Translations under genes and position numbers: made by a program
The notes under the pieces: generated by a model
What the model saw: only the letters and a program-made list of their open reading frames with translations
The model's database searches: none
What the model was told of the DNA's origin: nothing
Source of the DNA: Octopus vulgaris
Lineage: Eukaryota
Length of the DNA stretch: 64,000 nt
Reading direction: 5' to 3'
Assembly: GCA_951406725.2 (NCBI GenBank)
Contig: OX597815.1
Location: 32,240,001-32,304,000 of the forward strand
Shown: positions 458 through 34,466 of the stretch, piece by piece
Position numbering within the stretch: position 1 is the first letter of the stretch
How the letters are laid out: each line of letters begins with the position of its first letter

Positions 458-756
458 CTCTTTACTCTTTTACTTGTTTCAGTCATTTGACTGCGGCCAT
501 GCTGGAGTACCGCCTTTAGTCGAGCAAATCGACCCCAGGTCTTATTCTTTGTAAGCCTAGAACTTATTCTATCGGTTTCTTTTGCCGAACCGCTAAGTTA
601 CGGTGACGTAAAAACACCAGCATCGGTTGTCAAGCGATGTTGGGGGGACAGACACAGACACACAAACACACACACACATATATATACATATATATAAGTG
701 CAAACAAGGGAGTCAGAGAAAGGCAGAATGCCACTTAAATCTGAACACTACTATAG

Positions 757-798
<42 letters not shown>

Positions 799-1183: not shown

Positions 1184-1533
1184 ATTTAGCAGTCTACCTC
1201 TGTCTGATCCAAATCAACCATTTGTCACCAATCAACTAGTGTGCCTTTACTCTCCTAATACCTATTATCATTTCATCTCTTTCGGAAATGTTGTTCTGCC
1301 CTAATATATTAGACTCTCCCCTTTACGGCTTTAAACGTGCTCTTTCCTGTATTTGAGCTATTCGTATAAAATATTAATGACGCAGAACAACATTAGTTTC
1401 TTTGGCTTACTACCTATAAATCCATGTATCTTTTAAAGGCAATCTAAACTTATCGCTGTATCTAGCTAGTTAGCTACATTAATGTTTGTCGGTTTATGAA
1501 ATCATGTTGCTAACTATTTTGCAAAATTGTTTA

Positions 1534-1743
1534 CTCTCTTTACTTGTTTCGGTCATTTGACTACGGCCATGCTGGAGCACCGCCTTTAGTCGAGCAAATC
1601 GAACCCTGGACTTATTCTTTGGAAGCCTAGTACTTATTCTATCGGTCTCTTTTGCCGAACCGCTAAGTTACGGAGACGTAAACACACCAGCATCGATTGT
1701 CAAGCGATGTTAGGGGACAAACACAGACACACAAACATACACA

Positions 1744-1970: not shown

Positions 1971-2440
1971 TTCAAAACAATTGATCTGTTTATTTACATA
2001 TATTTCTATCTAGCAACTTATATATCTATCTACTTAACCACTCTGTCACTCGATCAATCTATTTTATTTATTAGTCTATCAGCATTTCTAAACATCAAGC
2101 TGTCTATCTTATCTGTCGATTTATTTATATAAATATTTATTCAACATGTTTCGTACGTCGTAGTATCAAAAATACTTCTATATTTCAAGCACTCAAGTTA
2201 TATTTCTACATATGCGAATTATATATATATATATATATATATGAAAAAACAAGTCAAAATAGAAAATGCTAAAATAATTTTATAAAGAACATTTCAGTAC
2301 CGGTTTCGATCATTTTGAGACCTTTTCAACTGTAACGATTAAATAATTAAATTTAGAAAAATTAGTCTGAACACTATACAAATATTCCTTTAAAAAAAAC
2401 TTTTCTTCTAATTTTTCTAAATTTAATTATTTAATCGTTA

Positions 2441-2478
2441 CAGTTGAAAAGGTCTCAAAATGACCGAAACCGGTACTG
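2441..2478 (+). ncRNA. Minimal type-I hammerhead ribozyme motif, U3-A8 core variant; inverted copy at 2295-2332 (-)
   Basis: cag-TTGAAAA-ggtc tcaaaat gacc-GAA-AC cg GT-A-ctg. Stems I, II and III all pair. Confidence 0.7.
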
Positions 2479-3071
2479 AAATGTTCTTTATAAAATTATT
2501 TTAGCATTTTCTATTTTGACTTGTTTTTTCATATATATCAACTCGTGTGTTCCTTTTCACCCTTATACATATATATATATATATATCTGTCAATTAAACC
2601 AATCTATTTATCTCTACATCTATATCTCTACAGACTTATATATATAATCTTTTATTTTTGTTTTTAAATTTTCAGTTTTTATATCATGTCGCTCGCCGAC
2701 AGCTTATATTGTCGAGGAGATATAATATAGTTTATAGTGACTTTATAGCAATTTTGACTGCTATTTCTAGACATGTAAGGGTTTTTATAGCCCTCTCCGT
2801 TATAACATTGATTTATTCACAATTATACATTCTTCTTTTACGAAAAACTTTTTTGATTGCATGTTCTGGCCACTGATATATTCATAAATAATTTTGAATT
2901 GTTTACGATATAATCTGCGTAATGTATTTTTACATTCATTCCTCTTTTATGTATATGTGTATGTATATATGTATATATGTATGTATGTATATATGTATAT
3001 ATTTTATCAGTCCATCTATTCAAATCAATATCTATTTATTCATGAAGTTATGTATCTGTCTACTTCACATA

Positions 3072-3967: not shown

Positions 3968-4127
3968 GGTTGCTGAAATAAATGAAAAATGCAAATCAAA
4001 TAATGAAGATAATCAAAAGAAAAAACTGAACGAAACGCCTCATATTCCCCCTTTTGTCGGAGCGTCATATGTGGGCACACGCAACATTATGGACGGGAAA
4101 CACCCATATTTGCAAGCATTAAAAGAG
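3968..4127 (+). CDS. Internal coding exon of gene A (uncharacterised large disordered protein); upstream exons not identified
   Basis: Acceptor cttttcaatttag|G at 3967/3968 and donor GAG|gtgggt at 4127/4128. Open frame VAEINEK...HPYLQALKE. Ends in phase 0, matching the next exon. Confidence 0.75.
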
Positions 4128-4292
4128 GTGGGTGTACTTGTGTGTATGCATATACATATAAACAACAAATACACACACATATACACATATATATACATAC
4201 ACACACACACACACACATATATATGTATATATATACGCATAAATATATATATATATATACATACATATATACATATATATATACATATATAT

Positions 4293-21383: not shown

Positions 21384-22155
21384 AAGGCGGCGAGCTGGTA
21401 GAAACGTTAGCACGCCGGGCGAAATGCGTAGCCGTATTTCGTCTGCCGTTACGTTCTGAGTTCAAATTCCGCCGAGGTCGACTTTGCCTTTCGTCCTTTC
21501 AGAGTCGATAAATTAAGTACCAGTTACGCACTGGGGTCGATATAATCGACTCAATCCGTTTGTCTGTCTTTATTTGTCCTCTCTGTGTTTAGCCCTTTGT
21601 GGGTAGTAAAGAAATAGGTATTTCGTCTGCCGCTACGTTCTGAGTTCAAATTCCGCCGGGGTTGACTTTGCCTCTCATCCTTTCGGAGTCGAATAAATAA
21701 GTCCCAGTTACGCACTGGGGTCGATATAATCGACTTAATCCGTTTGTCTGTCCTTGTTTGTTCTCTCTGTGTTTAGCCGCTTGTAAGTAGTAAAGAAATA
21801 GGTAGTTCGTCTGCCGCTACGTTCTAAATTCAAATTCCGCCGAGGTCGACTTTGCCTTTCATCCTTTCGGGGTCGATTAAATAAGTACCAGTTACGCACT
21901 GGAGTTGATATAATCGACTTAATCCGTTTGTCCTCTCTGTGTTTAGCCCCTTGTGGGTAGTAAAGAAATAGGTATTTCGTCCGCCGCTGTGTTCTGAGTT
22001 CAAATTCCGCCGAGGTCGACTTTGCCTTTCATCCTTTCAGGGTCGATTAAATAAGTACCAGTTACGCACTGGAGTCGATATAATTGACTTAATCCGTTTG
22101 TCTGTCTTTATTTGTCCTCTCTGTGTTTAGCCGCTTGTAAGTAGTAAAGAAATAG
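21384..22155 (+). mobile_element. SINE family C with one head and four tandem body copies
   Basis: Head ggcggcgagctggtagaaacgttagc. Units start at 21434, 21618, 21802 and 21972. 20 bp TSD gtatttatatattctttaat at 21364-21383 and 22156-22175. Confidence 0.92.
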
Positions 22156-22775
22156 GTATTTATATATTCTTTAATGTGTTCTTTAAACAGTATCACTCCA
22201 AAATGCCAAAATTTCACTTATTAAAGACGAACAATTGTTTTCTGAGCCGGAATGATTAAGGCCACAACTTTTCAATGTGGTTGTTAGGTTGTCTTCATTT
22301 CGCTTCCGTTTGACTTCCTTGTAGTTTGTTTGTTTGTTTTTGTTTTTGTTTTGTTTGTTTTTAAGAACAGATCCTTCAGAATATTAAAGTAACTCATCTA
22401 CACTGAGTGAGATGCCTGTTTGATTTCGCATGCAACGGAGAAGTAGCCAGCTTACTCTATGCAAGACCTGTAGATTTGTGACTTTTCTCTCTAAGTTACG
22501 AGCTTGTTATAACAGGTTAGAATCTCCTTATTGATCATGTCAGCGATCAGTCATTTTAATGCTCAGATCTAAAGCAAGGTCCTCGAATTCTCTGTCAAAA
22601 TTACAATTGGCTTTTTTAGTTTGATTCTAATCTGGAGTGCATAGGATAAATAGTTTACAATACAACCTTAGATCGTGTATCAAGCTCATTATATACCGGT
22701 ATATTATGGTAGATCAATAGATTGATCTACCATAATGTTGATGATGACCCAGCTTTATTCACCGGCTTGCTCTCT

Positions 22776-25995: not shown

Positions 25996-26270
25996 ATGCT
26001 TCAACACACGAACTCATATAAAGAATCTTGCAAACCAAATCCAAAAACGAAATACTTATGAATATATTTCTGATGAATCTCCATGAAAGCTTATATCTAT
26101 AAAACTTTCCATCGCTACTTACATATAATCCTAACCGATCCAATATCAAAAGATTAAAGTCTTTTCCTGTTGGTAGCTCCAGATATAATAATATAGCTAG
26201 CAACGAGTGAATACAATTATATCGGAATAAACGCGATCCTTCAATTGATTTTATGTTTTTCAACTTACAG

Positions 26271-29200
26271 CGGCACCTGTGTTGCGTCAGAGAGAAAGAA
26301 GTGTTTCCCAAAGCAGAAAACAATCTCGTACTTCTAGATCAATTTCTAGAGACCGACATATGGCAAATCCACTTGATGGTGGAAGAAAGCAGAGCCTTGA
26401 AAGTAAATCTCGAATACCCTTGTCCCATCAAAAACCAGTTAAATCAAACAATCCAAAAGAATGTTCGAGTCAGCCAGAAAAATATCATCCCAAAAGTGCT
26501 ATATCTCAAAGCAAACAAACAAAGTTGAGTAGCAACACCAAAACCAACTCGGATACTGTTGATACTAAATCAAATTTACCATGTACCATCAAAACTAATA
26601 ACAGGTCATCTTCACCAAAACGTTTGTCTCAGTCAAAGAGTAACAGCTCAAGAAAAATGGATCAGGACAAATGCTCTGAGACAAAAGGGCAAATATTTCC
26701 TGCAGAAAGTGTCTGTGATAGTAATCTCTACTTTTCCAACGACTATCAGGAAAGAGACGATTCCAAAACAGACTTAGTAAATTACAGCTTAGATCGAGCA
26801 GAAGAAAAAATGATATCTTATCGTACCCAATTAAATATGACGCCTACGGGATTTGGTGATTATACAAACTTCTTTATAAAACCCATTCAGCTGAATGTAA
26901 CACAGAAAGCAATCGAAAATGAAACCCTTAAAACAACCCCAAATAGTGAAGATAACATTTTACCAAGCATTACAAATTGTCAAAATGAGTCGGGGTCAGG
27001 TAACAAAAACAATTATTCAGATTTAATCGGAACTAATGAAGATAAAGTTGGGAATTCTTATTCTGAGTCGAAACATAAACAGTACCCCACTCAAGATAGT
27101 CACAACACAAGTAGAGAATTAAAAGACTATAACCAGGCAGCAGACAGAGTTCTAAGAGTTAAAGATCCAAACGAAATAGTTGCCGATGTTGGAAATGACA
27201 CCCATTGGAATGATTCATGTTCTAATTTCGATATTCAAGAGAAGATTATTCCTCTTAATTCTCGTGAGGTTGCAAGCAGTTTTACTGCTGATCAAGCGTC
27301 AAAGAATGATCGTAAAAATGATGTCAATGGTGATGAATCGCGCATGATTAATAGAAAAAATATTCCAGACAACAACGGAATATTTGACCAAAATGTATCT
27401 AATAGTAAATTTACTGATCAATCAAACAAAACTATTTTAGAAGATGAGGGAACATATGGTTCTATCTCTTCAAACGATAATACCAATACACAGAATAGAC
27501 TCAATAATGCTCCTCTTATTAATTTAGAAAATTCTGAAGATGACCAAAAGGAGCAATCAGACGAAGATTCCTCTGAAAATCCAAAAGAAAATAAAAACTT
27601 TTTCAAAAATATCCGAAATAAAGTCAGCTCTGTTTTCGCAAAGGATTCTGACAATGAAGACAGTTCCAGTGAAATGGGTGTTTCACTTGACGATAGGAGA
27701 AAAAATGTTTCTGATCATAGTGAAGAAGAGACATCTGCAGACCAGCTGGAAGATTTACACAAAAATTCTTCAGAAAATTCGGACGAAAACAGAACACCTT
27801 TCAAAAATTTCCGAAAAAAAATCCGTCCTGCTTCCACAAAGGACACTGACAATGATGTTAATTTCAATGAAACCGATGCTACACTTGATGACACGCAAAT
27901 GGGAAATGCTTCTGATCATAGTAACGAGGAAATGCCCACAGACCAGCAGGAAAATTCGGACATAGATTCCCCTAGAAGTCCGAAAGAAAAGAGAAATCCT
28001 TTCAAAAACTTTCGAAACAAAGTCCAATCTGTTTTCGCAAAAGATTCTGACAATGAAGATAGTTCTAATGAAATGGATGCTACGCCTGATGCAAGAAAAG
28101 GTAACGTTTCTGATCAAAGTGATGAAGAAAAACCCACAGACCAGCAAGAAGATTCAGACAAAAATTCCCCTAGAAGTCCGAAGGAAAGCAGAAAACTTTT
28201 CAAAAACTTCCGAAAGAAAATCCGTCCTGTTTTCACAAAAGACTCTGATAATGAAGTTAGTTCCAATGAAATGAATGATACACCTGATGTAAAGAAAGGT
28301 GACGTTTCTGGTGATAGTGAAGAAGAAACACCTTCAGACAATCAAGGAGACGTAGAGAAAAATTCTCCAGAAAATCCCAGCGGTAACAGAAAACTCTTTA
28401 AAAACTTCCGAGAAAAAGTTCGTTCTGCTTTCACAAAAGACTCCGACAATGAAGATAGTTCCAATGAAATGGATTCTACATTTGATAACACAACGACAGG
28501 AAATGTTTCCGATCAAACGGATGAGGAAACGTCCACAGACCAGCATGAATCTTCTGACATAAATTCCCCAGGAGGTCCAAAAGAAAAGAGAAAACCTTTC
28601 AACAATTTGCGAAACAAAGTCCGTTCTGTTTTCGCAAAAGATTCTGACAATGAAGATAGTTCCAAAGAAATCGATGCAACAGTTGATGATTCAACAACAG
28701 GCAACATTTCTGATCATAATAATGAAGAAATGTCCACAGACCAATATGAACATTCCGACAGAAATTCGCCAGAAAATTCGAAACGAAAACAAACCTTCTA
28801 AAAGTTTCCGACACAAAATCCGCTCTGTTTTCACAAAAGGTTCTGATGATGAAGACAGTTCCAAAGAAATCGATGCAACAGTTGATGATTCAACAACAGG
28901 CAACATTTCTGATCATAATAATGAAGAAATATCCACAGACCAATATGAACATTCCGACAGAAATTCGCCAGAAAATTCGAACGAAAACAAACCTTCTAAA
29001 AGTTTCCGACACAAAATCCGCTCTGTTTTCACAAAAGGTTCTGACAATGAAGATAGTTCCAAAGAAATCGATTCAACAACAGGCAACATTTCTGATCATA
29101 ATAATGAAGAAACGTCCTCAGACCAACATGAACATTCCGACAGAAATTCGCCAGAAAATTCGAACGAAAACAAACCTTCTAAAAGTTTCCGACACAAAAT

Positions 29201-32200
29201 CCGCTCTGTTTTCGCAAAAGGTTCTGACGATGAAGACAGTTCCAAAGAAATCGATGCAACAGTTGATGATTCAACAACAGGCAACATTTCTGATCATAAT
29301 AATGAAGAAATATCCACAGACATGAACATTCCGACATAAATTCGCCAAAAAATTCGAACGAAAACAAACCTTCCAAAAGTTTCCGACACAAAATCCGCTC
29401 CGTTTTCGCAAAAGGTTCTGACAATGAAGATAGTTCCAAAGAAATCGATTCAACAACACGCAGCATTTCTGATCATAGTGATGAAGAAACGTCCTCAGAC
29501 CAACATGAACATTCCGACATAAATTCGCCAAAAAATTCGAACGAAAACAAACCTTCCAAAAGTTTCCGACACAAAATCCGCTCCGTTTTCGCAAAAGGTT
29601 CTGACAATGAAGATAGTTCCAAAGAAATGGATTCTGTACTTGATGACACGCAAACGGGAAATGTCTCTGATCATAGTGATGAGGAAACACCCACAGACCA
29701 GCAGGAAAATTCGGACATAGATTCCCCTAGAAGTCCGAAAGAAAAGAGAAATCCTTTCAAAAACTTTCGAAACAAAGTCCAATCTGTTTTCGCAAAAGAT
29801 TCTGACAATGAAGATAGTTCTAACGAAATTGATGCTACATCCGGTGATACAGTGGACGTTTCTGATCACAGTGATGGAGAAACACTCACAGACCAAGAAC
29901 GGTTAGACAAAACGTCCCCAGAAAGTCCGAACGAAAAGGGATCTTTCACAAATTTCCGAAATAAACTTCGTTCTGTTTTCACAAAAGATTCTACAAATGA
30001 AGATAGTTCCAGTGAAATAGATAATACACCAGAAGAAACGACAAGTAACGTTTCTAGTGCTAATGATCGAGAAACATCCGAAAGAAATGGCAAATCAGAT
30101 AAAAACAAGGCAGTAGATAACAGAGTCTTTGACCGTCATTTTAATGATCCTGATAAATCAATTACTTTCGAAGCATCTAATGATACTCAGAACCTAAATG
30201 CTGCTTTGCATTCGGTGAACAGAGGTACATTGAAATCAAACAAGGATATTGTTGGTGTAACCAAAGAAAAACCAGGTAACAACACCAAAAATTCATCTTT
30301 TAGAACTAAGAATGGCAAAACAGTCGAAGCTACCGAAAATTTCCAACCAAGCAGCAAAGTAGCCTTAGTAGATTCTACACTACCTGTTGATCAATATATG
30401 ACAGATGCAGCAGAAGTGCAGAAATGTCCACCAATTTATGCCAAACCGAATATAAAAAGTACTATTCTTGAACCCTCGACAGAACAGTATCCAGAAAACG
30501 GAGAATTCCAGAGCGAGTCAAGTTCACCTGAGAACAAGAAACGTGACAAATACAATAATGATTCTATTGTAGATTTGCTAGACAAATTAGACCCTGATCC
30601 ACAGAAGGCATCAGACGAAGAGAGTACCGACAGTAAATCAAATCTAAATTCTCCTGAAACGGAATCTGACAAAAAATCTTCTCCTTCACGTTCTACTTCC
30701 TTTTCACGCTTTCGCACAAAACTCTCTTCGATGTTCTCTTTCAAATCTGATAAAAAGAAAAATGATGCAAAGGAAAAGGAGGAAGCTTCAGATGTCCGCA
30801 ATGGAGATGAGAATGATGGTGATGGAACTGCTGATCGTAAAGATGGAGATGATAGTAGTAGCATTCTCGATAAATCTGAACCTTCTGATGGAGATGATAC
30901 AACGACCAGAAGAGATGTTCTGAAACCAGTAAAAAATATTTCAACTCATTCTCCAAATATTAATAGTAAGAAAAAGATAGAAAGGCGACAAAGCGACAAA
31001 ACTCTCAGTGAAGACTCAGAAGAAGAGTTATCTAAAGAAGAAAGATCTCATGATCGTGAAGACATAATTACGGGGGAAAGTGACGATAATGAATATAATC
31101 CTTTTGACAAGTTCTACAATACGAACAAAGGAAAACATCTGACAAACAGCAATGTTAATGATTTAAGTAGTGATGGCACCCAAGGAATAGATGAAGACAA
31201 ATACTACTCCGACGGGAAGAAGACATCAAATTTGAATTCGACATCTTCTTCTCCATCCACCTTTTACAAAACTCCACCACCATACATTCCATCAAAAAAT
31301 ATTCAAGAAGACAGTACAATTTATCAGAAACCAAATAACTATAATGAAAGTGAAGATAATGACTCATTGTTCGAAAGCAGCAGTCTCTACACAAGTTCAC
31401 AATTATCTGAATCAGAGTTCCCACCAGAGCAGAAGGATAATGCAGAAAGCACTACTCCCCCAATGTCAAGTGAAGCTGACAACAAAGAGAATGCGGTAAA
31501 AAAAACTGTCCCATGGTATAACAAATTTAGGGCTTTGTTCAGTCTTAAAAAGCCAGAGAAAACTCCTGTTAAAGATACCACCACAGATGATGGTGAATTT
31601 TCGCGAGCTGAGTCTTATCATCCAAAGATGCTTGATACTGATGGAGTTGATCTGGATACAGTTTCTAATTCTCCAAACTGGTCAGATATTATCGACGATG
31701 ACGTCGTGTCGGAAGATGTACAAAGGAAACTGGCAGCTCAAAACTCGAAACTAATTTTTAATAATGATGGTGATTCGTTCGTTCAGACTAAGCCTAAATT
31801 AAATTCGACAGAAAATATAAGTAGGTCGACATCATTTCCTGACACTGAAGATCAGAGAACCTCAAGTAAGCTCCCAACAAAAGGTCAGTCTCTCGATCAA
31901 GATAATACATTACAAGAAGGAAATTCTTTGAAACGCTGGCCACATTTAGGTGAGATCACGAACGTTGCTGATAATCCAATGTTTCAGCAAGAATATCCGC
32001 TCAGCAGTGAACGGTCGACTTCTAATGAATATCTAAGTGATGATTCACTAGAAACTGAACAAAAGGTACAAACTAATATTGACAGAAAGCCTTTAACTCA
32101 ATCAAGGACACTCAATGCTGAAACTTTCCTTGACTCAACAAATTCTCCCAAAACAGTCGTTGCATCAAAAAAATCTTCAAAAGTCCCGATAAGAGTTAAA

Positions 32201-32576
32201 AAAGCAAGTTTTTCAGGTAATAAAAGACCAGTTCTTTCGCCGTCGCAATCACGTTTGTTTGATTATCCTAACAATGAAGATACAATAAAGGATTCATCAA
32301 AAGGTACACATTTGAGGAAAAATGGCAATGACCGCACATCAACAGTATCGGGAAATGAATCGAATACTATGATCAAAAAACGGGCGAAGGAACCGATTAC
32401 TTTAGAGACAAGCAATGCTCACTTAGTAAGACGTAGTGGCAGGTCGCCGACAGAAACAAAGGATAGACGTGATGTTAAAAAACAAGTGGAATCTAAATAT
32501 AAGCCGATCGGTGATCAAGCTGCTGACGGTCGTCGTGTTTTACCGAAAGGAGGTAAAAAAACAAAGACAACTTCAT
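26271..32576 (+). CDS. Giant (~6.3 kb) coding exon of gene A: Ser/Asp/Asn/Lys-rich disordered region with tandem repeats and two internal frameshifts
   Basis: ttttcaacttacag|CG acceptor (phase 1) and TCAT|gtgagt donor at 32577. Covered by ORFs 26279-28801, 28650-29339 and 29627-32584, which share one repeat motif. Confidence 0.8.
27540..30060 (+). repeat. Coding tandem repeat, 13 units of ~183-201 nt (consensus ...SPxxxxExRxPFKNFRNKVRSVFAKDSDNEDSSxExDxTxDxxxGNVSDHSxEExxTDQ...)
   Basis: The F(K/S)xFRxK(V/I)RSVFxK motif recurs at about 27600, 27800, 28000, 28200, 28400, 28597, 28795, 28993, 29178, 29370, 29553, 29753 and 29943. Confidence 0.95.
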
Positions 32577-34466
32577 GTGAGTAGAAAACGTTGTTGTTAA
32601 CTTGCTGACAATGCTTCGCTTTCCGTTGGTCTACATGTTCAAACCCACCCCAAACAGCATGCATTTACTTCGTAATTTTTATTTATTTTCCTGTTGAATG
32701 CCTCACAGCATTTAGTTATATCTCTTTACATTCCCAGTTCAAATCCTGCTAGTACTGTCTTTCATCCCAGCTGACTACATCGCTTCCTTGTATTTTTCTA
32801 TCCAGTAAAACGAATTCTTTATACGTAAGCCAATCAACGTTTGTTGAGATAAGTGCACATTGTACAATGTCGCGGTCGCGACTCCCATTTGGAACTCTTC
32901 TTAGAAAACATGATGAACATCACAATATCCTATTTACTATATCTTTTGTGTGCTTGAAACATCACGTGTTTCTTTTACACTAGAATAAGTGACCATCTAA
33001 AGAAGTATAGGTCGCTGCGACATATCAGAGGTACCACTAAAAAATCAACGAGTGTTTCTTTAGTTTGCCATACTGACTCATCTCACCCTCTGGGGAAGCT
33101 TGGCCAACTGATTTGCTTTCACCGTACGAAGACAAAACTTTTAATGGCTCTTCTACGATTCAGTGAATTGTGCAGTTTACCACAAAGAGTGACAGTACAC
33201 AATGACTAAGATCTTGCCTGGACTCAGAGAGCATCTAATATGTGCGTGTGCGTATATGTGCGCGCGCTGTGAGTGTGTCAGTGTGTGAGAGAGAGGGAGA
33301 AATCAGTTGGCTCAAAATGTTAGATTCAAATCTTGAATCTGCGAATTAACTTTGAACCATATCTGCAAGAAAGATTCTGTTATAGCGCAGACTTGAGATG
33401 GACTTCGTTATGTGAACCAACTAACGAACACTCATTTAGTTTATTGTGCTCCAACTACCTGCAGCAGTGAATAGTTTTTACGCATGGCACTCATTTAGCA
33501 CTAGATAAACAGAACCATCAAGAAACGAATTGTTTGGGCCATGACCTCGACGAAGTGAGGGAGGAAAGATGTGAATTTTGTTAGTCCGATCGTTGATTAG
33601 ACCATTCAGAAAGCAGGAGTCTTTTTGAGCCTGTATATTTAATTCCATTTGCTTCTTTTGAGAAGTCAAAAGGAAGTCTAGTTAGTTGTATGCAACTTCT
33701 CTAAATGTGCAGGCGTTTATTCCCAACAGCACGTAGATTATAATACCCAGTCCAGAAACAAACGAAATACCAGCAATCGATTCGAACCGATGGACTATGA
33801 GCAGGTTGTTCAATACAATATCCTCTCGGTTATTTTGATTCTATTCTCAACCGACGATTCGATACGACATCGTTACGGTCATCAACAATTCCAGAATGTC
33901 TAGTAGACTATCACTCTTTCACCGATATATTTATTCATTGTAAGAGGTGAATGAAGCTTGTCTCGCCCTTTTCCGAAGAATTCTGTCCTTTCTGTCTGTA
34001 ATTTCTTACATAGCCTACAGTACGGACACAATATTGATAATCGCAAGTTTATTTTTGCCATGGTTAAGCTTTGACTGAGCAGACTTATGACCAAAGGTGT
34101 TCCAACTATGACCATCTGATCTATTTTAGGGTTATATATAAGAGAACATCATCCATTGTGTGCTTCCCTTTCCCTATAAAGTAGAATGTGATTTGTAAGA
34201 GATTTTACTGCTATTTCTAGCAGTTCTAGCACAGCATAAATGCCCACACTATGGCTCGGATAATTGCAGATATAAGGCATGAGTGAGAAACGATAATTGG
34301 GGTATAGAAGTAAAGGCTTTGCACTAATTCGTCTTCACTGTATTCACATCTGCTAATCCACGATATGAACGTTTTCCCTACATGTCTTCTATTGCTACTG
34401 CAACACGCTACAAATACTTTCCCAAAACCGCACTGTCTCCTCTTGCTGTCCTTCTGCACCTAACTT

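What the first reader, a model, noticed from the sequence alone, without database searches (positions are those of the whole stretch)
2241..2570. Young 125 bp-arm foldback in (TA)n with a U3-A8 variant hammerhead in both arms
Arms 2241-2365 and 2408-2532 are almost perfectly complementary around a 42 nt spacer, with a unique tail to ~2570. Each arm has the core UUGAAAA in place of CUGANGA. This is a compensatory change of the C3-G8 tertiary pair to U3-A8, a known tolerated covariation, which suggests selection on structure. A standard CUGANGA search would miss it. Transcription from either strand includes one ribozyme copy, although the long hairpin would compete with its folding.
Basis: partly seen in the sequence, partly recalled or inferred. 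Interest (0 to 1): 0.75.

Follow-up and report, generated by a model that had tools for sequence, protein, structure and literature searches.

The report
Inverted Penelope retroelement end with hammerhead
This hairpin is an ordinary stub of a young, very common Penelope-type jumping gene: two short copies of its tail end lie head to head in a TA repeat, each carrying an already published variant of a self-cutting RNA motif that is predicted to be shut off at this spot.

Summary
The foldback is real: arms 2235-2365 and 2408-2538, 131 nt, one mismatch. It is not a stand-alone foldback element. It is two 5'-truncated, head-to-head copies of the 3' end (pseudo-LTR, pLTR) of a young endonuclease-bearing Penelope-like retroelement (PLE). 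The 'spacer' is more pLTR; the 'unique tail' is the 34-nt PLE tail. The exact 38-nt hammerhead occurs 1,765 times in the genome; a full-length copy encodes RT plus GIY-YIG. U3 and A8 are fixed: 5 non-U3 and 4 non-A8 copies. U3-A8 hammerheads in PLEs, inverted 5'-truncated copies, one-ended tails and (TA)n targets are all published (PMC4209133, PMC8557442). At this locus the hairpin buries the ribozyme by about 60 kcal/mol, and U3 is predicted to pair with cleavage-site A17, like the inhibitory C3-G17 trap. Residual interest: paired arms are mostly one tailed plus one tail-less (27 of 32) and share one source (0.7% versus 8.8% discordance), which favours twin priming on one RNA. The scan noted this class before in the same genome (e1-9539494). 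Verdict: new member of a known kind; low interest.

The parts
2220..2242 (.). (TA)n target microsatellite, left side; its last 8 nt are shared with the element's TA-like short end
   Evidence: sequence
2235..2365 (-). Left arm: 131-nt 5'-truncated pLTR copy ending at the tail-less (short) 3' end
   Evidence: L011 is the window's own locus; 1,217 exact short-end junctions genome-wide
2295..2332 (-). Left-arm minimal type I hammerhead, U3 at 2329, A8 at 2324, A17 at 2298; G-U at stem II pair 10.2-11.2 from the variant at 2309
2365..2366 (.). Head-to-head junction of the two 5'-truncated arms, blunt, no microhomology
2366..2572 (+).
   Evidence: 99% to other copies over 2366-2566; 40 best genome hits of 2408-2566 at 99-100%
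2441..2478 (+). Right-arm minimal type I hammerhead: stem I 2441-2443/2476-2478; core U3 2444 to A9 2450 (A8 2449); stem II 2451-2454/2462-2465; palindromic helix III 2469-2474; predicted cut after A17 (2475)
2539..2572 (+). 34-nt PLE tail, ending in a second TA-like stretch; in the full element it runs on into ORF1
   Evidence: 30-40-bp tail described in PMC8557442
2569..2586 (.). (AT)n target microsatellite, right side; no target-site duplication can be read inside the repeat
   Evidence: sequence

Best explanation
The hairpin is two short, head-to-head copies of the 3' end of a young, high-copy Penelope-like retroelement lying in a (TA)n repeat, likely written there in one insertion event by the element's endonuclease and reverse transcriptase, and its hammerheads are inherited passengers predicted to be buried in the hairpin. 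Shown: family membership, RT plus GIY-YIG in full-length copies, two fixed 3' ends 34 nt apart that both end in TA-like sequence, one tailed and one tail-less end in most pairs, the same source for both arms. Inferred: the endonuclease cuts both strands of (TA)n; the two DNA ends prime on the element RNA at the two TA-like sites, most likely on one RNA molecule, with the rear polymerase displacing the front cDNA (about 50%); both cDNAs stop early (131 and about 207 nt here) and are joined end to end. The template was uncut or re-joined at the hammerhead, since arms span the cut site. In full-length transcripts the motif likely works, if at all, as a slow dimeric or protein-assisted ribozyme.
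For: 1,189 first-look candidates, 40 best at 99-100%; 1,765 exact 38-nt hammerheads. L032 holds an inverted arm + pLTR + ORFs + pLTR with a 4,381-nt unit; RVT_1 E 4.6e-08 and GIY-YIG E 1.4e-04; linker C-x4-C-x2-C, CxxC inside GIY-YIG and a pair of histidines. Ends: 983 tailed and 1,217 short exact junctions. Head-to-head neighbours on contig C1: 27 of 32 mixed against 50% expected, p 5.6e-05; 39 of 40 fetched pairs mixed. Arms share subfamily in 24 of 24 pairs; 7 of 1,042 polymorphic-site comparisons differ within pairs against 8.8% between same-subfamily loci. The A8C variant occurs twice genome-wide, in both arms of one locus. Hairpin -187/-197 kcal/mol, stem probabilities about 0. Literature: inverted 5'-truncated copy and one-ended tail (PMC8557442; PMC3846280); both strands cut and extended, two RT start sites bounding the tail, uncut RNA the main substrate, ribozyme protein-assisted (PMC11167929).
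Against: The steps of insertion are inferred from genomic footprints only. 5 of 32 C1 pairs are not mixed (3 short/short, 2 tail/tail; one of the latter is a nested locus). Two RNAs from one source element, or later conversion between arms, would give the same sharing; 36 locus-private variants lie in one arm against 7 in both. In the anole element the RT start site was not homologous to the cut DNA (PMC11167929), unlike the TA-like ends here. GIY-YIG scored 22.5 bits against a cut-off of 22.6.
Confidence: 0.9

Rival explanations
1. Same identity, but the two arms were copied from two separate RNAs held by a protein dimer (possibly an RNA dimer joined through hammerhead helix III), each priming one DNA end.
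For: Both arms exceed 800 nt in several pairs (L045, L059, L060), so two long 3' ends were copied. The hammerhead palindrome forms a 6-bp intermolecular helix (-10.3 kcal/mol). A protein dimer is predicted for the anole element (PMC11167929).
Against: Independent RNAs should give about 50% mixed ends; 27 of 32 are mixed. Arms almost never differ at polymorphic sites (7 of 1,042, near the 0.46% background), so both RNAs would have to come from one source locus.
Confidence: 0.3
2. Same identity, but the inversion arose by self-priming or fold-back on the first cDNA or on an antisense template (model of PMC3846280), or the arms were homogenised after insertion.
For: Explains shared private variants (7; A8C in both arms). 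Junction overlaps of 2 or more nt in 13 of 32 simple junctions.
Against: Fold-back at the junction should give a palindromic centre; here, and in most pairs, one arm carries unmatched upstream pLTR and 12 of 32 junctions are blunt. It does not by itself explain why the second arm stops at the short TA-like site.
Confidence: 0.15
3. One reading: a self-standing foldback (MITE-like or retrozyme-like) element whose U3-A8 ribozyme is under selection and active at this locus.
For: Near-perfect arms in (TA)n; U3 and A8 fixed; 3-8 complementarity kept across motifs in this genome (U-A in two related families, C-G in L037, L082, L084, L087).
Against: No fixed internal structure: every junction differs and arm lengths run from about 110 to over 3,000 nt. 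The sequence is the end of an RT-coding element. The ribozyme fold costs 58-66 kcal/mol in the hairpin. No second same-strand copy lies in the window for dimer formation.
Confidence: 0.04
4. Assembly or library fold-back artefact.
For: Near-perfect inverted repeat.
Against: Arms end at two different biological sites, differ at one base, and the same layout recurs at dozens of loci with different junctions.
Confidence: 0.01

Closest known systems
Inverted 5'-truncated insertions with one-ended tail of endonuclease-bearing PLEs (PMC8557442: abstract, introduction, passages; PMC3846280: passages)
   Same: Head-to-head truncated pLTR copies, 30-40-nt tail at one end, microsatellite target, hammerhead in the pLTR
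   Different: This locus has no coding sequence left; only 131 and about 207 nt of pLTR
Minimal PLE hammerheads with U3-A8, Schistosoma mansoni Cercyon (PMC4209133: parts 1-2 of 4, supplement 2 part 1 and search hits)
   Same: Type I, short stem I, palindromic helix III suited to dimers, U3-A8; one listed core is UUGAAAAA; opposite-strand pairs 100-700 bp apart were noted
   Different: The two listed U3-A8 examples have U17 or G17; this family has A17, which can pair with U3. It is highly uniform, like D. virilis Penelope, not heterogeneous
Neptune/Nematis clades of PLEs (PMC8557442)
   Same: C-terminal GIY-YIG, CX2-5CxxC linker, CCHH motif, (TA)n target
   Different: Clade not resolved by a tree; a 411-aa ORF1 overlaps the RT frame in -1, and the RT frame lacks its own ATG
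Poseidon of Anolis, PAc (PMC11167929: parts 1-2 of 4)
   Same: Two RT start sites bounding the tail, AT-rich target, copies spanning the hammerhead cut site
   Different: PAc has a C3-G8 core and start sites not homologous to the target; here both ends are TA-like
Metazoan non-LTR retrozymes (bioRxiv 10.64898/2026.07.22.740005: abstract start, passages)
   Same: PLE-related hammerhead in a non-coding repeat
   Different: Those are tandem non-autonomous units; this is a truncation product with variable junctions

Membership tests
Endonuclease-bearing PLE | RT with C-terminal GIY-YIG endonuclease in full-length copies | tested here: met
   L032: RVT_1 E 4.6e-08, GIY-YIG E 1.4e-04, 0.1 bit under its cut-off; RT frame open for 757 aa in 2 of 7 long copies
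Endonuclease-bearing PLE | pLTR repeats in direct and inverted arrangement | tested here: met
   L032 and L062 direct; 40 inverted pairs
Endonuclease-bearing PLE | 30-40-nt optional tail | tested here: met
   34 nt; 983 tailed and 1,217 tail-less ends
Endonuclease-bearing PLE | CCHH motif with CxxC inside GIY-YIG | tested here: met
   motif match at aa 609 and 637
Neptune/Nematis clade | CX2-5CxxC linker between RT and endonuclease | tested here: met
   aa 571
Neptune/Nematis clade | RT phylogeny with named references | not tested
   no named reference proteins among the 120 listed homologues
Naiad | N-terminal endonuclease, no canonical hammerhead | tested here: not met
   endonuclease is C-terminal; hammerhead present
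Minimal type I hammerhead of PLEs | Core nucleotides with complementary 3-8 pair, GAAA, UH | tested here: met
   U3-A8, GAAA, GUA
Minimal type I hammerhead of PLEs | Stems I and II paired, G10.1-C11.1 | tested here: met
   3 of 3 and 4 of 4 pairs; in the isolated MFE fold; z-score only -1.5
Minimal type I hammerhead of PLEs | Palindromic helix III for dimer formation | tested here: met
   6-bp self-complementary stretch; all dimer pairs are Watson-Crick
Minimal type I hammerhead of PLEs | Extra H nucleotide between 9 and 10.1 | tested here: not met
   absent in the young family, present in the older sister family; described as common, not obligatory
Minimal type I hammerhead of PLEs | Self-cleavage | not testable with these tools
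   no raw RNA reads offered
MITE / foldback DNA transposon | Fixed-length copies with conserved TIRs and internal sequence | tested here: not met
   junctions and arm lengths differ at each locus
Retrozyme | Tandem or LTR-flanked non-coding unit with same-strand hammerheads | tested here: not met
   opposite-strand copies, sequence belongs to a coding PLE

The most novel reading that the evidence does not exclude
This family's thousands of near-identical insertions record how PLE inverted repeats form: both cut DNA ends prime on one RNA, at two TA-like sites 34 nt apart, giving one tailed and one tail-less arm from the same template. Its U3-A8/A17 hammerhead carries a built-in U3-A17 lock that keeps the RNA uncut until protein or a partner RNA opens it. 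With intact two-frame copies in the genome, it would be a ready test system for the open question of PLE tandem/inverted structures.
Probability: 0.25. Interest if true: 0.55.

Novelty: new member of a known kind. Interest (0 to 1): 0.2.

Why it matters
As a locus it matters little: it is one of hundreds of such stubs. As a family it is a large, young, uniform data set. Arm pairs let one test models for PLE inverted repeats, which PMC8557442 names as unresolved, and the U3-A8/A17 core gives a clean bench question about whether PLE hammerheads are tuned to be slow or protein-gated. It also warns annotators: such stubs look like MITEs and are missed by CUGANGA searches.

Tried and rejected
Empty-site alleles: four DNA or unlabelled runs laid on 1980-2940 are contigs that break at the TA repeats; no piece spans the site, so no verdict. 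Expression and cleavage: no RNA holder listed on record; four guessed-RNA contig sets cover 25-30 of 30 bins of the element but cannot show ends, strand or level; no verdict. A spliced joint at the ORF1/RT-frame overlap was not seen, and contigs of two runs bridge it unspliced; weak. No stable structure behind the slippery heptamer (-2 to -3 kcal/mol). A canonical-core sister subfamily: only 1 copy genome-wide, L037; L082, L084, L085, L086, L087 and L089 show no PLE protein within 1.5 kb. Selection on the motif within the genome: not shown, because copies were picked by the motif and families are too close. Two-parent origin of arms (hint in e1-9539494): not seen in 40 pairs; its locus was not examined. 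Protein Atlas look-up of ORF1 was unavailable; ORF1 has no Pfam hit. Lunse et al. 2017 (PMC5785218) is not held and may already list U3-A8/A17 motifs. Rfam miRNA hits are below gathering scores and reflect the hairpin.

Full report
Observation. The inverted repeat is there: arms 2235-2365 and 2408-2538, 131 nt, 42 nt apart, with one mismatch at 2309/2464, between (TA)n runs at 2220-2242 and 2569-2586. Each arm holds a type I minimal hammerhead pattern, 2441-2478 (+) and 2295-2332 (-), absent from 100 shuffles and weakly hit by Rfam HH9 below its gathering score. Core: U3 2444, A8 2449; four-pair stem II; six-base palindrome; GUA ending at 2475. In the left arm one stem II pair is G-U.

What it is. 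The right arm has 1,189 first-look candidates in the 2.8-Gb genome, the best 40 at 99-100%. The exact 38-nt motif occurs 1,765 times. Upstream of other copies lies more shared sequence; the 42-nt 'spacer' is part of it. Locus L032 holds a whole element: inverted short arm, pLTR, ORF1, an RT plus GIY-YIG frame, a simple-repeat 3' UTR and a second pLTR, unit 4,381 nt. The protein has the CX2-5CxxC linker and CCHH motif that PMC8557442 gives for Neptune and Nematis; I built no tree, so the clade is open. 893 of 7,986 scored database proteins match at E 1e-50 or better, none of the 120 listed with a clade name. The host is probably an octopus; that is a recalled resemblance, not a tool result.

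Ends and pairs. Copies stop at one of two places 34 nt apart, both TA-like and both followed by microsatellite: 1,217 short and 983 tailed exact junctions. The window has one of each. On contig C1, 27 of 32 head-to-head neighbours within 6 kb are mixed against 50% expected (p 5.6e-05); 3 are short/short and 2 tail/tail, one of these a nested locus. Among fetched pairs 39 of 40 are mixed; 16 of these came from a query holding the tail, and 24 of 24 others are mixed. Those 24 pairs all share a subfamily, of three. Within 40 pairs, 7 of 1,042 comparisons at polymorphic sites differ, close to the background of 37 in 8,093 bases, against 8.8% for same-subfamily copies at different loci. Seven locus-private variants are in both arms and 36 in one; the A8C variant exists twice genome-wide, in both arms of one locus. 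Dropped rows: duplicate loci L010, L020, L021 and L041, and 3 of 126 copies too short to align.

The ribozyme. U3 and A8 are fixed: with the rest held, 5 copies lack U3 and 4 lack A8. An older sister family dominates the 156 hits of a relaxed U3-A8 pattern and has a weaker stem II. One copy, L037, is canonical C3-G8, and unrelated single motifs with the same palindrome are C3-G8. This is 3-8 covariation across families, but fixation inside a young family is descent and does not show selection. U3-A8 is published for natural hammerheads (PMC3088659, passages) and for about 1,300 PLE-type motifs in Schistosoma (PMC4209133), one with the core UUGAAAAA. Such minimal motifs cut poorly and only as dimers; the anole PLE ribozyme needs protein and uncut RNA is the main RT substrate (PMC11167929). 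Two results speak against activity here. The whole transcript folds at -187 (+) or -197 (-) kcal/mol with stem probabilities near 0, and forcing the ribozyme costs 58-66 kcal/mol; on either strand the antisense arm is made first. And U3 pairs with A17 at probability 0.83-0.87 in the isolated motif, against 0 in two natural C3 copies; the analogous C3-G17 pair is the proposed trap behind the NUH rule (PMC3884650, passages). The two published U3-A8 examples I saw have U17 or G17. The dimer form is geometrically possible. Arms that span the cut site were copied from uncut or re-joined RNA; my sample was chosen for whole motifs, so it cannot show whether other copies start at the cut.

Mechanism. 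Shown: identity, ends, pairing statistics. Inferred: the endonuclease cuts both strands of (TA)n, each end primes at one TA-like site, both cDNAs stop early and are joined. One RNA copied twice with strand displacement best explains mixed ends plus shared source (about 50%); two RNAs from one source (30%) and fold-back or later conversion (15%) remain.

Novelty. Inverted truncated copies, one-ended tails, (TA)n targets and U3-A8 cores are in print. I found no paper with this family's hammerhead, the U3-A17 point or a count of end asymmetry in 7 searches; the library lacks many papers, PMC5785218 was not held, supplement 1 of PMC4209133 could not be read, and figure 1 of PMC8557442 was seen only as a legend. 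PMC13282606 (passages) already counts recently active Penelope families in an octopus. PMC6765202 was read as passages. Verdict: new member of a known kind, interest 0.2.

Noticed in passing
L032 5874-7106 and 3579-5910 (-); also L046, L055, L056, L061, L062, L077: In 7 of 7 long copies the RT frame has no ATG before its conserved start and overlaps the end of ORF1 (411 aa in L032) in -1 over a U UUU UUA heptamer, which also looks like a splice acceptor; many relatives have Met at this place. Frameshift-separated ORF1 is mentioned for PLEs in the legend of PMC8557442 figure 1.
   Followed up: partly
pLTR, about 205-250 nt upstream of the short end (ruler 4111-4153): 25 of 64 arm 5' ends cluster here; may mark the transcript's 5' end or a strong RT stop.
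   Followed up: no
L037 1437-1694 (-): The only family copy with a canonical C3-G8 core; two independent point changes are unlikely, so a relic lineage or reversion.
   Followed up: partly
L084 about 1498-1540 (+); L082 and L087 about 1500-1545 (-): Canonical-core minimal hammerheads with the same palindrome and compensated stem II, no PLE protein nearby; L082 and L087 resemble each other.
   Followed up: partly
L064 3693-4056: A young copy lies head to head against a 78%-identical old copy, so not every inverted pair comes from one event.
   Followed up: no
window 696-762: A 67-nt fragment of the same pLTR, without hammerhead, between microsatellites.
   Followed up: no
window 26249-32584 (+): Very long open frames (850 and 1,092 aa) built from 183-198-bp tandem repeats, rich in S, D and N; likely a large repetitive exon with frame breaks.
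   Followed up: no
window 469-646/1539-1716, 773-938/1793-1958, 21434-22161: SINE-like dispersed repeats beside microsatellites and a 184-bp tandem array; the label is recalled.
   Followed up: no
L031 365-700 (+): Open frame resembling a Tc1/mariner transposase N-terminus; label recalled.
   Followed up: no
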